NCBI GenBank assembly: GCA_951406725.2
Contig: OX597826.1
Location: 51,398,001-51,462,000 of the forward strand
Length of the DNA: 64,000 bases
Source of the DNA: Octopus vulgaris
Lineage: Eukaryota
Direction of reading: 5' to 3'
In this document: positions 4,103 to 63,595 of the stretch, piece by piece
How the letters are laid out: every line of letters begins with the position of its first letter
Numbering within the stretch: the stretch's first letter is position 1
Made by a program: the position numbers and the translations under genes
The notes under the pieces: model-generated
Database searches by the model: none
Told to the model about the DNA's origin: nothing
Seen by the model: only the letters and a program-made list of their open reading frames with translations

Positions 4103-6378
4103 GTGCTTATACATTGCTTGACGTTATTACTTTTTATCTGTTAAAGTCACCGAGTTTGTGAAATATCCATCTTCATGATTCTCAACGATTTAAATATTTC
4201 AATATTTCAATAATAGAAAGAACACACCCACACACTTACTCATAGGTCAGACATTGCACATGCGCACGAATTCTTATTTTTAGAAACAAGTATTTCCAAA
4301 GCAAAAAAAAAGAACGTTATGTCATAATCATGTTATGTCAGTCATTTTGATGAATTGGAAATACTATTTCACTCCTAATTTTACTGGTATAAATCCCTGG
4401 TCGTTCATATCTGAATTAGTGAGGGATTTAATCGTTGAGTGTCTGTCTCCTGGATATTGTGTCCTTGTGTTAAACTTTATCGCCGTCATCATCATAACCA
4501 TCATCGTCACCATTATAATCATCGTCATCATCATCCTTATCATCAACTTCGTTTTCTTCGGCGTGCTAACTTTTCTGCGATCTGGCAGAATTGTTAGCAC
4601 GCCGGATAAATTTCTGAGTGGCATTTCGTCCGCTTTTTACTTTCTGAGTCAAATTTCGCCGAGGATCGACATTGCATTTCGATTTTCGATGAAATAAGTA
4701 CCGGTTGAGCACTGGGGCCAATCAAATCGATTAGGTCACTCACTCAAAATTTCAGTCTTGTGCCTTGAGAAGAAATGATTATTGATCTCGTTATGTTTGT
4801 TATTTACTGTGTGATAAGTGCACCGAGAGACTCCTTTTTCAGCTGCAACCTGGAAATTATTTCTGTAAGTATACTTGACGAACAAATGTTAGAAGAGAAT
4901 ACCATTGCAATAATGGTAGAACTTAGTCTTACTTTTCTTTTTCATGTATATAACTTACAAAATCGTATATATGTCCATGGCTTTCCAGACATAGTTTCGT
5001 ATCATTTCAGTTTTAGCAGTGACATATCACATTCCATAACTGCCATAATGTCTGCACTACAGTACCACTCCCTCTAGCTTCCACTGTATAGTTCGTGAAG
5101 CGATAGTAGTATAAAGATGTGACTTTAATCGGGTTGACGTTTGTCGCATCAATTCCTTTGTTTTTACTCCTGCTTTGTCTTAGGATGTCATTCATTCGAA
5201 ATTTCAAATGATTTATAGTGATAAGTTTGTTTCTTATGATAAATTTATTTATTATATTCTATTTAATTTGCTCGATCATATCAATAAAGGTAAAACTCTT
5301 GGTAGGTCTTCTTGTGAGGTGGAAATAAAGGTAGCAAGAATAATTGCTTTCCTATATGCTTCTTGACACTCCATAGTCTTCTATCACCTTCTCTTCATGG
5401 GTATGTGACTGGTCGACAGGATGTGTAGTATCTTGTGTTGTCTTCAGTGATTTCTCGTATTACGATCTTTGGTTATTAAATCCCGCCGAGGTCATTTATG
5501 CCTTTCATCATTTCGGGGTCGATAAAATAAGAATAAGCTAAGTACGGGGTTTAATGAAATCAACTAAACATCTTCCCCCTAAAATTGTCGGCCATGTGTC
5601 GAAATTTGAAATCATTATTGTTCTTATGGCGGTGAGCTGGTAGATTTCTTTCGTATGCCAGACAAAATGCTTAGTGGCATTACTTCTGTCTTTATATTGT
5701 GAGTTCAAATGCCGCTGAGGTCGACTTTGCCTTTCTTCCGTTCTGGGGCGATAAAATAAGTACCTGTTACACACTAGTATCAATATATATTTCTTTACTA
5801 CACACAAGGGGCTAAACATAGAGGGGACAAACAAGGACAGACAAAGGGATTAAGTCGATTACATCGACCCCAGTGCGAAACTGGTACTTTATTTATCGAC
5901 CCCGAAAGGATGAAAGACAAAGTCAACCTCTGAGGAATTCGAACTCATAACGTAACGACAGACGAAATACCTCTAAGCATTTCGCCCTGCGCGCTAACGT
6001 TTCTGCCAGCTCGCTGCCTTAAATCAATATAATATATATAGTATCAATATAATTGACTTGTCCCCTTTACCAAATTCCAGCCCTTATGTCTGTTATTGTT
6101 ACGTGTACTTTGACTGCAACACCAAGTGTTGTTCTGTTTTTGATTTTGCTTTGCTGTCTGTTGTATTACGATTATTTTACAGAATATGCATGCAGTGCCT
6201 AGTATTGCCATCGTTTATACGTTGTGTACATTTTATGCCTTATGGCTTGGTTAGGTATTGGTCACCAGGTTATTTCATCAATCTCAACAACACTTTATTA
6301 TAGAAATTGTCTTTGTTTTCAATTCCCCATCTTTCTTATCCCTATTAACAATTACTTATAGTTGAATATTCTATGTTG

Positions 6379-11621: not shown

Positions 11622-11932
11622 ATTTGAGTCAGTAGCTATCTGTGTCCTTGAAAAAATGACTTAATACACGTAACTTCCGCTAGGATTTGAGTCAGTAGCT
11701 GTCTCTGTCCTTGAAAAATGACTTAATACACTAAACTTCCGCTAGGATTTGAGTCAGTAGCTGTCTGTGTCCTTGAAAAATGACTTTATACACGTAACTT
11801 CCGCTAGGATTTGAGTCAGTAGCTGTCTGTGTCCTTGAAAAATGACTTTATACACGTAACTTCCGCTAGAATTTGAGTCAGTAGCTGTCTGTGTCCTTGA
11901 AAAATGACTTTATACACGTAACTTCCGCTAGG
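11622..11932. repeat. 62-bp minisatellite, 5 copies
   Basis: ATTTGAGTCAGTAGCTGTCTGTGTCCTTGAAAAATGACTTTATACACGTAACTTCCGCTAGG, with units at ~11622, 11685, 11747, 11809 and 11871. Confidence 0.95.
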
Positions 11933-14329: not shown

Positions 14330-14440
14330 CTGTGAACATCATGTTTCTGGATTATAAACATATTGAATATATATTCCATATATTTTTGATATATATTTCA
14401 TATATATTGCATATATATTTCACATCCTTCTTCAGCACAG
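14330..14440 (-). ncRNA. Type I hammerhead ribozyme (unit 1)
   Basis: Minus strand reads CTGTG-CTGAAGA-A-GGAT...ATCC-A-GAAAC-ATGAT-GTT-CACAG: stem I CTGTG/CACAG, CUGANGA and GAAA cores, quasi-palindromic stem III (ACAT-G-ATGT), GUU triplet. Confidence 0.75.
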
Positions 14441-14971
14441 CTTTCCATTGAAAAAGATTTATCATAGATTTATCAAATGCTACGTACCTCAAACCTTCTG
14501 ACCATGCGACATCAAAATATTTGAAGAAAGTGAGCAAAGGCTAAACCTACATAGACGTTTGAATTCATAAATCTTCCCTCCAAAATTTTGCCATGCGCAT
14601 TACAAAAATAGTTCCGTAAGATGGGGAACAATTAGGTTGTCAAAGGGAGAGAAACATCCAAATAGTAATATAATGATAAGAGTAAATAATTTCTATAAAG
14701 GCTTTTAAAAAAAACCCAATTATTTACTGGTAGAATTCGGTATGTAAATATAGCCGATTACCGGCAGGAACTTCTGTAAAGTTCAGTATATATATTGTAT
14801 ATAAGAAAGAGGGACAGGCAAAACAGGTTGCTTGACCGCATACCGAAAAAATAGAAATAGCAGTCAAGAATGCTTATTTCTATCAAAGTTGGACTCCGGG
14901 CATGACAGACCCTGTAATTCACATATGCAAAACAGAAGGAATAGATAACGAATACGAAGTCTGGCGGTTAT

Positions 14972-15082
14972 CTGTGAACATCATGTTTCTGGATTATAAA
15001 CATATTGAATATATATTCCATATATTTTTGATATATATTTCATATATATTGCATATATATTTCACATCCTTCTTCAGCACAG
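14972..15082 (-). ncRNA. Type I hammerhead ribozyme (unit 2)
   Basis: Same motif as 14330-14440, offset by 642 bp. Confidence 0.75.
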
Positions 15083-15594
15083 CTTTCCATTGAAAAAGAT
15101 TTATCATAGATTTATCAAATGCTACGTACCTCAAACCTTCTGACCATGCGACATCAAAATATTTGAAGAAAGTGAGCAAAGGCTAAACCTACATAGACGT
15201 TTGAATTCATAAATCTTCCCTCCAAAATTTTGCCATGCGCATTACAAAAATAGTTCCGTAAGATGGGGAACAATTAGGTTGTCAAAGGGAGAGAAACATC
15301 CAAATAGTAATATAATGATAAGAGTAAATAATTTCTATAAAGGCTTTTAAAAAAACCCAATTATTTACTGGTAGAATTCGGTATGTAAATATAGCCGATT
15401 ACCGGCAGGAACTTCTGTAAAGTTCAGTATATATATTGTATATAAGAAAGAGGGACAGGCAAAACAGGTTGCTTGACCGCATACCGAAAAAATAGAAATA
15501 GCAGTCAAGAATGCTTATTTCTATCAAAGTTGGACTCCGGGCATGACAGACCCTGTAATTTGATAAATCTTGATAAATCTTTTTCAATGGAAAG

Positions 15595-15705
15595 CTGTGC
15601 AGAAGAAGGATGTGAAATATATATGCAATATATATGAAATATATATCAAAAATATATGGAATATATATTCAATATGTTTATAATCCAGAAACATGATGTT
15701 CACAG
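15595..15705 (+). ncRNA. Hammerhead copy in the inverted arm with a core mutation (CUGAAGA to CAGAAGA)
   Basis: CTGTG-CAGAAGA-AGGAT...ATCCA-GAAAC-ATGAT-GTT-CACAG, with T>A at 15601 relative to the other two copies. Confidence 0.65.
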
Positions 15706-22628: not shown

Positions 22629-23562
22629 GTTACTTTTTCATTGGCAAGGCACTTTCTTTTCTTAGTAGATTCTCAAGACACGTTCTTTGTAGCTGCGAAC
22701 AAAAACGATTTTAAAAAATTTCAAATGTCACAAGAAAATAAACCACATCTACTCTCACAAAAGAAACTTTTTTTTCATAGGTAGTGTGATAAAACTCAGA
22801 CCAAACCAATACCAAGAATAAAAGAATCTACATGGTTAATCTGATTTTCGTCGATGTATAAGACAGTTTGCACGCAAATGTCAGTGCCTTATTCTGAATG
22901 AATACGTTGATATTTAATGTGGCAGATCCGAATTCCAGCAGATCGAAGATTTCTGCTAGTTTTCTTTTCATTAGTCACAAATATTGTTCGTCCATGTAGC
23001 GGTTAATAATTCGCAAAATCTCTGTAAATTGTAAGTCTGAACATAAGTCTGCATTTTATCTCCTATTCTATGCGAAGAAATATGTGACGAAAATCATGGG
23101 TAAAGCACTATGTCATAGATGAGTAAAATATACACTATATACACACAAAAACACACATAATTACCCATATATATATACACGCACATGCACATACACACAC
23201 ATCTAGAGGTGCAGGAAAAACATACATATATATATATATATATATCATAAGATGAACAATTGCATTCTATTTAGCCTTTGAGCAACTTGCGCGGCCACTG
23301 CCAGCATGGAAAGTTCTTAATCTTATCATTAATGGCGCGAAACTGAGTATTACCATTTAGTTGATAACTGATAAAGAATTAGGGACCTGTATCTATCTCC
23401 CGTGCGATTGTGCACACCGTACACGTTATGTCGTTTGTTTACTTATACATTTTTTCACTTTTTCATATATATATATATATATATATAAAATGTGACCGCG
23501 TGTGTACCGTTGGCGATTTTTTTTCCTCTGTCTTCCCTTCTCTGGAACTTTCCTTCTCCTAT

Positions 23563-23597
23563 GTTTCCGACGAAGAGCTCCGCTCGAAACGTTAAAC
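23563..23597 (+). ncRNA. Minimal hammerhead variant (CCGACGA core)
   Basis: GTTT-CCGACGA-A-GAGC-TCC-GCTC-GAA-ACGT-T-AAAC. A degenerate homolog with CTGACGA lies at 621-655. Confidence 0.55.
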
Positions 23598-23772
23598 CCT
23601 CCTTCCTTCCTTCTTTCCTGAGCGTCCAATAATACTATATTTGTTCCACGTCCTCGCGTTGTTGTGTTTTTCTTTTGGGCTTTCATGTTTGGATTAACTT
23701 TATATATATATATATGTTTGGATTAACTTTATATATATATATACGAGAAAGAAGCGACAAGAATGGATTAGT

Positions 23773-23863
23773 TTTTAGTACAATTGTTTCATACAAAGAC
23801 AGGCTTTATTAAAAGTTGCAAAAATTGCAGCAGATAAAAGTGTCCCGTACTCATCAGCTAAAA
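23773..23863 (-). ncRNA. Type I hammerhead ribozyme, inverted copy of 24327-24417
   Basis: Reverse complement of the 24327-24417 motif, in the left arm of the inverted repeat. Confidence 0.85.
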
Positions 23864-24326
23864 TACATATGAGTTCTCCAAACATCTTAGTGGGTGAGGC
23901 TATACTCATGAAGTATTGGAGATAATTTCATTAAAAGCAGATTTAGGTTGTAAACAGATTACCGAAGTTCTTTAATGATGATGCACAGTCTTATCACAGG
24001 TTTTAAAAAAAGCTTATTAGCTTCACAGAGAAGGTGAATTAATCCGTAGTGTAGATGTAAATTTCCAGAGATATGAGGAGGAATTTCATACTCACAGACG
24101 ATGAATTTATCCATGGTTAATCCACAATGAGGTGGGTATCATTTCATGCTATATGATAAGGTCTTTGCCACATTACTGTTCTCTCTCCCTCTCTGTTACA
24201 CACGCACATACATATATCCGGTATTCGGAAATCTGTTTACAACCTAAATCTGCTTTTAATGAAATTATCTCCAATACTTCATGAGTATAGCCTCACCCAC
24301 TAAGATGTTTGGAGAACTCATATGCA

Positions 24327-24417
24327 TTTTAGCTGATGAGTACGGGACACTTTTATCTGCTGCAATTTTTGCAACTTTTAATAAAGCCTGTCTTTGTATG
24401 AAACAATTGTACTAAAA
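24327..24417 (+). ncRNA. Type I hammerhead ribozyme, canonical core
   Basis: TTTTAG-CTGATGA-GTACGGGACA...TGTCTTTGTAT-GAAAC-AATT-GTA-CTAAAA: 6-bp stem I, G-U-rich stem II, palindromic stem III ACAATTGT, GUA triplet (predicted cleavage after 24411). Confidence 0.85.
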
Positions 24418-24557
24418 ACTAATCCATTCTTGTTGCTTCTTTCTCGTTTATAATCACCCCACATTACTGTATGGTTAACACCATATAGTTTTCTGGTGCA
24501 TCTAAGTTAAGTACCGCATTCAAGTAGATTCATTAGAATTGACTTGAATCTTAATTG

Positions 24558-24618
<61 letters not shown>

Positions 24619-25284
24619 AACTTCGTGCGTGTGTGTCTATCTATCTATTTATCTATCTATCTATGATGTTCGTCGACTGGACGTCGAACAAAATCACTAT
24701 TACACTGGAGACGTGCGTGTAACAGGTCGGATATCATTTCCACAATGGTCTCTCACTTGAATGCGTGGCTCTGATATTTTTTACATTTTAGTCAAAAATG
24801 TGACGCAGTATCTGGTGAAGAAGGACACCAACAAGAGGTCCACACTTGGCTTTCACAAAATGATCTCTCTCTCCCTCTCTGTCACACACGCACATACATA
24901 TATCCGGTATTCTTATATATCCTGTACAAAGAGGCATGCCTTTCATGCTAGCTTTTAATCTCGTTATAGGACTTCTGGTTAAACAACAACAACAACCATA
25001 CCTAACACTGCTTGAAATAATTTTCCCCAGACGGCCAGAGGATTAACCTTCGAATTGAACGAGTAAACAAGAGAAAAAAAACCCAAGAAGAATCAAAAAT
25101 GTTAACACAAAATAATTTGGGGTGAACGTTATACGTATTAGAAAGTCGAATACAAAATACCAGATGTCAGACACTTTTCATTTTTTAATATATCAGAGCT
25201 TACTTGAAAGAAAAAATGAGAGTGTATATATATATATATATATATAAAATAAATAAATAAATAAATAAATAAATAAGTAAATAA

Positions 25285-29393: not shown

Positions 29394-31210
<1,817 letters not shown>

Positions 31211-63059: not shown

Positions 63060-63595
63060 GCGAAATGCGTAGCAGTATTTTGTTTGCCGTTACGTTCTGA
63101 GTTCAAATTCCGCCGAGGTAGACTTTGCCTTTCATCCTTTCGGTGTCGATTAAATAAGTACCAGTTACGCACTGAGGCCGATGTAATCGACTTAATCCGT
63201 TTGTCTGTCCTTGTTTGTTCGCTCTGTGTTTAGCCCCCTGTGGGTAGTAAAGAAATAAGTATTTCGTCTGCCGCTACGTTCTGAGTTCAAAATCCGCCGA
63301 GGTCGACTTTACCTTTCATCGTTTCGGGGTAGATTAAATAAGTAAGAGTTACGCACTGGGATAGATATAATCAACTTAATCCGTTTGTCTTTTCTGTGTT
63401 TAGCCTCTTGTGGGTAGTAAGAAATAGGTATTTCGTCTGTCTTTACGTTCTGAGTTCAAAATCCGCCGAGGTCAACTGTACCTTTCATCCTTTCGGAGTC
63501 GATAAATTAAGTACCAGTTGCGTACTGGGGTTGATCTAATCGTGTCGTCCCCTCACCCCAAATGTTGGGCCTCGTGCCTAGAGTAGAAAATATTA
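63060..63595 (+). mobile_element. Head-to-tail chain of three family-A SINE bodies
   Basis: Three TTCTGAGTTCAAA..CCGCCGAGGT cores joined through GTAAAGAAATA(A/G)GTATTTCGTCTG. Confidence 0.85.

What the first reader, a model, noticed from the sequence alone, without database searches (positions are those of the whole stretch)
23743..24447. Two canonical hammerheads in opposite orientation in ~224-bp inverted arms
This is the cleanest HHR in the window (CUGAUGA, GAAAC-AAUU-GUA, 6-bp stem I), present on both strands, so a transcript of either strand carries a ribozyme. A read-through transcript could instead fold into long dsRNA that sequesters it, a potential ADAR or small-RNA substrate. The layout matches inverted pseudo-LTRs of Penelope-like insertions. 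Short direct repeats (CCACATTACTGT at ~24167 and ~24459; a ~46-bp copy at 24181-24226 and ~24868-24913) suggest template switching during integration.
Basis: partly seen in the sequence, partly recalled or inferred. Interest (0 to 1): 0.72.

Follow-up and report, generated by a model that had tools for sequence, protein, structure and literature searches.

The report
Head-to-head Penelope stubs with hammerheads
The two mirror-image ribozyme motifs are two truncated ends of one Penelope-type jumping gene sitting back to back in a TA repeat, a layout already described; the pattern across about 90 sister insertions suggests that each cut DNA end likely primes its own copy of the element's RNA, and the ribozymes at this spot are predicted to be masked by the opposite arm.

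Summary
Observation confirmed. The arms are the hammerhead-bearing terminal repeat of a young Hydra-clade Penelope-like retrotransposon family (709 exact motif copies; full-length 4.6-kb parents with a ~950-aa RT/GIY-YIG ORF found). Opposite-strand hammerhead pairs, inverted pseudo-LTRs, a one-sided tail and (TA)n targeting are all in print, and this scan has noted the same layout on other DNA of this genome. The hammerhead covaries across sister families (stem I, self-complementary helix III, a hairpin inside a 60-nt stem II) but likely needs a dimer, and in either read-through direction the antisense arm comes first, so it is probably silent here. Useful additions: 89 of 91 head-to-head pairs join one end at +35 and one at about +150 from the cut site; both arms share variants; either arm can be longer; the two exceptions look like fold-backs. 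This favours priming at both target ends over the published antisense self-priming idea. The 47-bp insert is a genuine copy of flanking host DNA (unique in the genome); the 12-mer is simply part of the element, not a switching scar. No cleavage, editing or empty-site data could be obtained.

The parts
23491..23700 (+). Older, separate SINE-like repeat with a minimal hammerhead-like core (core at 23567) whose TA tail is the insertion site
   Evidence: 89.7% match to a copy in L188; 10,987 exact matches of its 26-nt core, control 0; copies flanked by (TA)n
23685..23743 (.). 29-bp tandem duplication (end of the older repeat plus TA); its last TA run, 23730-23743, is the left target remnant
   Evidence: TRF period 29, 2.0 copies, 100%; sequence; origin relative to the insertion not determined
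23744..24184 (-). Left arm: 5'-truncated element end stopping at the proximal site (+35 from the cut site), about 440 nt, no tail
   Evidence: matches family copies at 97-99% over 23738-24184; end class; extent
23773..23863 (-). Type I hammerhead motif, left copy; predicted cut 23779/23778
   Evidence: mirror of the right copy, identical over the motif
24168..24179 (+). 12-mer, first copy: part of the parent's 3' UTR read on the opposite strand
   Evidence: present about 390 nt upstream of the cut in parents L125 (12/12) and L124 (11), 10 nt in subfamily B, absent in family C
24180..24226 (+). 47-nt insert between the arms, copied from host DNA at 24866-24912; 5-nt and 3-nt overlaps with the left and right arm
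   Evidence: 46/47 identical; a 28-mer of it occurs twice in 2.8 Gb, both here; not covered by the element; overlaps read
24224..24562 (+). Right arm: 5'-truncated element end stopping at the distal site (about +150), with the tail
   Evidence: 97-99% to family copies; continues into the 5' UTR and ATG in full-length copies
24327..24417 (+). Type I hammerhead motif: 6-bp stem I, intact core, 60-nt stem II insert with inner hairpin, palindromic helix III; predicted cut 24411/24412
   Evidence: covariation across 11 family representatives
24447..24562 (+). Tail (about 115 nt) = first part of the parent's 5' UTR; starts with a TA-like tract and a conserved AC-rich motif; holds the second 12-mer (24459-24470)
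   Evidence: alignment to full-length parents
24562..24615 (.). (TA)27, right target remnant
   Evidence: TRF
24866..24912 (+). Host donor of the 47-nt insert, about 250 nt beyond the TA tract
   Evidence: contigs of two other organisms cover 24669-25190 and 24702-25078 with 14-17 differences, so this flank is older than the insertion (inferred)

Best explanation
This is one truncated, non-coding insertion of a Hydra-clade Penelope-like retrotransposon in a TA microsatellite, made of two element ends joined head to head, each carrying the family's hammerhead motif; it likely arose when both ends of the cut target primed reverse transcription on the same sense RNA (or RNAs of one source copy) at two fixed internal sites, +35 and about +150 nt from the predicted ribozyme cut, and the two unfinished cDNAs were then likely joined by microhomology, one of them first copying 47 nt of nearby host DNA. 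Shown: identity of the family, layout, two fixed end sites, one-of-each pairing, shared variants, local origin of the insert. Inferred: twin priming, annealing of the TA primer to TA-like tracts at both sites, end joining. The hammerhead is a conserved part of the parent RNA that probably cuts as a dimer (inferred from the covarying palindrome and from published tests on similar motifs); at this locus it is predicted to be locked in a 220-bp hairpin and the insertion is likely inert.
For: Full-length parents: pLTR-5'UTR-ORF (949-957 aa in L112, L113, L116)-3'UTR-pLTR, unit 4.6-4.7 kb. Hydra motifs in the L113 protein. Of 138 ends, 69 proximal, 62 distal, 7 run on into the ORF; in an earlier pass 122 of 124 terminal ends abut (TA)n. 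Head-to-head pairs with one proximal and one distal end: 45 of 45 among BLAST-picked loci (41 places), 23 of 24 picked in genome order (two of the 23 classed by eye), 21 of 22 in two sister families. Arms of one insertion differ by 1.3 per 135 nt vs 5.3 between insertions (39 pairs; within subfamily A 1.4 vs 4.2, 0 of 20,000 permutations as low). Proximal arm longer in 18, distal in 18, equal in 9 of 45; here the proximal arm holds about 220 nt the distal arm lacks and the distal arm holds the tail, so neither is a copy of the other. Both end sites coincide with TA-like tracts of the parent RNA. The two exceptions (L217, L261) are near-perfect palindromes with same-type ends; L261 shares a deletion found nowhere else in the genome and runs on into a copy of its own flank before a short proximal piece, i.e. 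fold-back gives same-type ends. Hammerhead: 92% of cells paired, 7 pairs with two-sided changes, slid controls 29-48%. Read-through fold -466 kcal/mol with the motif inside the duplex. Two internal RT start sites bounding the tail were shown in vitro for a Poseidon element (PMC11167929).
Against: All mechanism steps rest on genomic footprints. The flank-copied insert was seen only here (1 case among the 91 pairs looked at; other long inserts map to the element or to a later SINE; family-D junctions could not be mapped for lack of a reference), and it could also stem from a later break and repair at the palindrome centre. Fold-back does occur (L217, L261, short extra inversions in L223, L224, L226). 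Arm extents of about six long pairs were mis-measured by the script. The active monomer fold is 3.7 kcal/mol above the minimum and the structure tested was drawn from the window's own sequence, which favours it over slid controls. [quoted passage not shown] Many sampled copies are single proximal-ended arms without a detected partner.
Confidence: 0.72

Rival explanations
1. Self-priming fold-back, on an antisense template as proposed by Arkhipova et al. 2013 or by snap-back of one cDNA, builds the inverted repeat; the endonuclease then trims the two ends unequally, leaving the tail on one side. The 47-nt insert and unequal arms would be later damage.
For: Published for head-to-head Penelope inversions with palindromic junctions (PMC3846280, passages); shared variants between arms fit copying; L217 and L261 are fold-backs; 9 of 45 pairs have nearly equal arms.
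Against: Either arm can be the longer one (18 vs 18); the clear fold-backs have same-type ends, unlike 89 of 91 pairs; the junction here holds DNA from the target's flank, which a hairpin formed before integration could not hold.
Confidence: 0.17
2. The locus is a selected ambisense ribozyme switch or dsRNA substrate (ADAR editing, small RNAs) that acts on a host transcript.
For: Both cores are intact; the hairpin would be a good dsRNA substrate; family sequence occurs in contigs of runs guessed to be RNA.
Against: 48 of the first 100 listed motif copies sit in the same head-to-head layout, so intact twin cores are the default of a young family; the arms already carry 3 private changes; no host exon was found near the site (Pfam scan of 149 of 253 candidate frames: only 4367-4636 and a transposase-like HTH at 29617-29886).
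Confidence: 0.06
3. A non-autonomous retrozyme or MITE-like unit with terminal inverted repeats rather than a stub of the coding element.
For: No ORF in the insertion; inverted termini; retrozymes derive from PLE pLTRs (bioRxiv 10.64898/2026.07.22.740005, part 1 of 5).
Against: Every part except the 47-nt insert maps to the coding parent; inner breakpoints differ from copy to copy (40 to over 4,000 nt); no tandem monomers.
Confidence: 0.04

Closest known systems
Hydra clade of C-terminal EN+ Penelope-like elements (Craig et al. 2021, PMC8557442; abstract, passages, sections 11 and 15, supplement searches), incl. Hydra-1_Obim
   Same: Single ORF with RT and C-terminal GIY-YIG; RWK, DKT, CxCX5C, CxxC and CxH motifs; hammerhead in the pLTR; (TA)n targets; inverted 5'-truncated copy and one-sided tail
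   Different: Not Hydra-1_Obim (N-terminus and hammerhead differ by eye). Unit 4.6-4.7 kb against 'generally <3 kb'; asparagine-rich expansion between RT and EN; 1.6-kb 3' UTR; tail about 115 nt against 30-40 bp; stem II with a 60-nt insert
[quoted passage not shown]
   Same: Type I topology, 6-bp helix I, short helix III with palindromic loop, dimer-dependent design; that paper already reports pairs 100-700 bp apart on opposite strands
   Different: Long stem II with a conserved inner hairpin; position 10.1-11.1 is G-U in this subfamily (G-C in 5 of 11 representatives)
Poseidon element of Anolis (Frangieh et al. 2024, PMC11167929; parts 1-2 of 4 read)
   Same: Two internal RT start sites bounding the tail, downstream of an uncleaved hammerhead; AC-rich motif at the start region; both target strands cut and extended
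   Different: There the ORF starts inside the hammerhead and the sites lie in the ORF; here ATG is about 210 nt downstream and both sites lie in the 5' UTR at TA-like tracts matching the target
Adineta vaga Penelope elements (Arkhipova et al. 2013, PMC3846280; passages read)
   Same: Inverted pLTRs, optional tail, asparagine-rich inserts between RT and EN, microhomology junctions
   Different: Their inversions were read as antisense self-priming; most pairs here fit two separately primed cDNAs better

Membership tests
Hydra-clade Penelope-like element | Single ORF with RT and C-terminal GIY-YIG endonuclease | tested here: met
   949-957-aa ORFs in parents; weak Pfam RVT_1 hit, E 5.9e-5, below cutoff; GIY-YIG read by eye as VIY...YIG, no Pfam hit
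Hydra-clade Penelope-like element | RWK motif, DKT in place of DKG | tested here: met
   RIRWK and PADKTG in L113 against the definition
Hydra-clade Penelope-like element | CxCX5C linker; CxxC and CxH in EN; no CCHH | tested here: met
   CKCRIKSKC, CQLC, CVH; CCHH not seen by eye
Hydra-clade Penelope-like element | Hammerhead in direct/inverted pLTRs, tail on one end | tested here: met
Hydra-clade Penelope-like element | Insertion into (TA)n | tested here: met
   122 of 124 terminal ends
Hydra-clade Penelope-like element | Placement in the Hydra clade of an RT tree | not tested
   No tree built; motif-level match to the supplement's Hydra alignment by eye only
Hydra-clade Penelope-like element | Length generally under 3 kb (descriptive, not diagnostic) | tested here: not met
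   Unit 4,599-4,722 bp in 9 loci
Type I hammerhead ribozyme | Core CUGANGA / GAAA / UH with stems I-III | tested here: met
   covariation
Type I hammerhead ribozyme | Match to an Rfam hammerhead model | tested here: not met
   No hit at gathering or E<=10; the long stem II is the likely cause (inference)
Type I hammerhead ribozyme | Self-cleavage at the UH site | not testable with these tools
   Needs a bench assay or raw reads; only contigs were served
Non-LTR retrozyme | Tandem non-coding monomers each with a same-strand hammerhead | tested here: not met
   Arms are opposite-strand stubs of a coding 4.6-kb unit

The most novel reading that the evidence does not exclude
Hydra-clade elements integrate by obligate twin priming: one RT dimer on one sense RNA (possibly circularised through the dimeric hammerhead) anneals the two cut TA ends to two TA-like tracts 115 nt apart, makes one cDNA from each, and leaves two free cDNA ends that copy nearby DNA and are joined at the target. 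This would explain the one-sided tail, the head-to-head inversions and TA targeting in one scheme, replace the antisense self-priming model, and the flank-copied insert in this window would be a direct footprint of junction closure at the target.
Probability: 0.5. Interest if true: 0.58.

Novelty: new member of a known kind. Interest (0 to 1): 0.3.

Why it matters
The locus itself is most likely transposon debris. Its value is as a footprint: how Penelope-like elements form inverted repeats and tails is named as an open question by Craig et al. 2021, and this family offers a near-strict one-proximal/one-distal rule, young intact ORFs and defined RNA sites for an in vitro test. The long-stem-II hammerhead, missed by Rfam, shows that such motifs are undercounted (709 + 1,061 exact copies for two motif variants). 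Hundreds of such hairpins could be editing substrates, but that was not testable here.

Tried and rejected
Rfam: no hammerhead hit. Folding against shuffles: no signal; a first constrained fold failed through an indexing slip and was redone. Sequencing runs: no RNA holder on record and only contigs; laying them gave no read ends, no splice joint in the 5' UTR, no usable editing signal and no contig across the empty site; none of this counts for or against expression. 5' UTR intron: candidate GT/AG sites exist but no spliced form was seen. 12-mer as long-range pairing: conserved only in close subfamilies, no covariation; five arm breakpoints fall at 426-440 nt near it, a post-hoc hint only. L261 first read as a natural mutant lacking the proximal site; the deletion is private to that locus, so it was re-read as a fold-back. 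Circular versus linear template: 5' pLTRs extend 55-1,165 nt upstream of the cut and match their own 3' pLTR by 0-2 differences in 8 of 9 loci, but the own partner was sole best in 4, tied in 3 and second in 2; suggestive only. The left-flank repeat as pLTR of a second Hydra family: adjacent to such an ORF in L188 but not in L187; rejected. Host gene: none found near the site. Protein search: 41 hits, nearly all unnamed, 32-44% identity, one octopus gene model at 70%. Literature searches for twin priming in Penelope elements gave nothing relevant; the library lacks most subscription papers, and older Penelope mechanism papers were not read. No structure or complex prediction was run.

Full report
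Observation. The window holds two arms, 23738-23966 and 24224-24452, 98% complementary. Each has CUGAUGA, GAAAC-AAUU-GUA and a 6-bp stem I, pointing outward; the predicted cut on + is 24411/24412. The motif is less canonical than stated: 60 nt lie between the two core halves, helix III is 2 bp with a palindromic loop, Rfam finds nothing, and the active monomer fold is -9.1 against a minimum of -12.8 kcal/mol.

Identity. The arm is a repeat of the window's own 2.8-Gb genome (1,756 candidates, best 40 at 98-100%; 709 exact matches of a 28-mer, control 0). The host is probably an octopus (70% hit to an octopus gene model; inference). [quoted passage not shown] Full-length copies read pLTR with hammerhead, 210-nt 5' UTR, ORF of 949-957 aa, 1.6-kb 3' UTR, pLTR; the unit is 4,599-4,722 bp in 9 loci. 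The L113 protein has RWK, DKT, CxCX5C, CxxC and CxH, the diagnostic set for the Hydra clade (Craig 2021, section 11). It is not the published Hydra-1_Obim (compared by eye). Sister families at 80%, 60% and 53% identity exist in the genome.

Anatomy here. Left TA run; left arm 23744-24184 on the minus strand; 47-nt insert; right arm 24224-24562; (TA)27. The target was the TA tail of an older SINE-like repeat at 23491-23700. The 'spacer' between the arms is mostly element: 23967-24184 is parent 3' UTR. The 115 nt after the right arm is the tail, equal to the start of the parent's 5' UTR. The 12-mer sits at both places in the parent, so it records no switch. The 47-nt insert does: a 28-mer of it occurs twice in the genome, both here, with 5-nt and 3-nt overlaps to the arms. 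The arms differ at 3 internal sites in about 224 nt, so the insertion is young.

End rule. Family ends stop at two sites, +35 (proximal) and about +150 (distal) from the cut site: 69 proximal, 62 distal and 7 running into the ORF among 138 ends; 122 of 124 terminal ends in an earlier, less strictly deduplicated pass abut (TA)n. Both sites coincide with TA-like tracts in the parent RNA. Head-to-head pairs join one proximal and one distal end in 45 of 45 BLAST-picked pairs (41 places; part of the set was fetched with the tail as query), 23 of 24 pairs taken in genome order from the first 100 of 709 matches (L207 and L225 classed by eye) and 21 of 22 pairs of two sister families (20 of 23 listed pairs fetched anew plus two held). 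Arms of one insertion are closer to each other than to other insertions (1.3 vs 5.3 differences per 135 nt in the 39 pairs long enough; own partner closest or tied in 29 of 39). Either arm may be longer (18, 18, 9 equal, with some long pairs mis-measured; 5, 10, 6 among the 21 measured genome-order pairs, read). Of 16 apparent singletons, most show only a proximal end.

Exceptions. L217 (proximal + proximal) and L261 (distal + distal) are near-perfect palindromes. L261's arms share a deletion found only there, the second arm runs into a copy of the first arm's flank, and a short proximal piece follows. I read both as fold-back copies; fold-back therefore occurs, and where it is clear it gives same-type ends.

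Mechanism. Shown: the above. Inferred: the endonuclease cuts both strands in (TA)n; each end primes reverse transcription inside the same source RNA, one at each site, through the uncut hammerhead; both cDNAs stop early; a free end copies nearby DNA (here 47 nt of flank) and the ends are joined by microhomology. Two internal start sites bounding the tail, cutting and extension of both strands, and dispensable hammerhead cleavage were shown in vitro for a Poseidon element (PMC11167929). The main rival is antisense self-priming (PMC3846280); it explains shared variants but not the free choice of the longer arm or a flank copy at the junction unless later damage is invoked.

Ribozyme. Across 11 family representatives 92% of cells in the drawn structure pair, 7 of 22 pairs change on both sides, and slid controls give 29-48% (the structure was drawn from the window copy; RNAalifold by itself recovers only the inner hairpin and predicts alternative pairings for the core). 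The helix III palindrome stays self-complementary in all 11 through A-U, G-U and G-C forms, as expected for dimer cleavage; published motifs of this design cut poorly or not at all as monomers (PMC4209133). At this locus the antisense arm precedes the sense arm on both strands and the read-through RNA folds into one long duplex (-466 kcal/mol), so cleavage is unlikely. Expression, editing and read ends could not be examined.

Comparison and novelty. Opposite-strand hammerhead pairs 100-700 bp apart are described; inverted truncated pLTRs with a one-sided tail and (TA)n targeting are described; asparagine-rich inserts are described. I found no paper stating the one-of-each rule or twin priming for these elements (limited library), nor a hammerhead study of octopus beyond Craig 2021. 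This scan's earlier notes on other DNA of this genome report the same layout, twin priming and long stem II (unchecked AI notes, seen); one led me to the antisense paper. Papers seen: PMC11167929 and PMC4209133, parts 1-2 of 4; PMC8557442, abstract, passages, sections 11 and 15, supplement searches (figures S7-S8 seen only as extracted text); PMC3846280 and PMC13282606, passages; bioRxiv 10.64898/2026.07.22.740005, part 1 of 5, supplements not seen.

Verdict. A new family of a known clade in a known layout; the locus is probably inert. Interest 0.3, carried by the mechanistic footprint.

Noticed in passing
window 23491-23700 (+): SINE-like repeat of about 230 nt with a minimal hammerhead-like core (CCGACGA or CUGACGA, 4-bp stem II, ACGU palindrome); 10,987 exact matches of a 26-mer in the genome; copies bounded by (TA)n. 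Mobilising element not identified.
   Followed up: partly
L261 (G000:C1:127917200-127919500): Distal-ended palindrome whose arms share a private deletion of the proximal-site region, followed by a copy of its own flank and a short proximal piece: a clear cDNA fold-back record.
   Followed up: yes
L156/L161 (G000:C2:37619050-37625853): Two ORF starts of the family facing away from each other on opposite strands, both with intact 5' hammerheads: a head-to-head pair of long copies.
   Followed up: no
L191, L192 (family C), L113: Asparagine-rich expansions lengthen the ORF from 836-842 aa (60% family) to 950-1,070 aa without breaking the frame.
   Followed up: partly
window 4367-4636 (-): 90-aa frame matching Pfam DUF7657 (PF24677, E 3.2e-6, just above cutoff); possibly a host exon.
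   Followed up: no
window 29617-29886 (+): HTH_32-like frame (E 1.6e-5, below cutoff); likely a DNA-transposon remnant.
   Followed up: no
window 14360-15675: An 11/22-bp repeat block recurs at 14360 and 15002 and, inverted, at 15613: spacing suggests another tandem-plus-inverted insertion.
   Followed up: no
window 11622-11932 and 63074-63541: 62-bp minisatellite (5 copies, 95%) and a 184-bp tandem of a SINE-like sequence (2.7 copies).
   Followed up: no
L163:939 (+), L184:140 (-), L135 (+): Further long-stem-II hammerhead-like motifs of other families next to these insertions, one with an ACAUAUGU palindrome.
   Followed up: no
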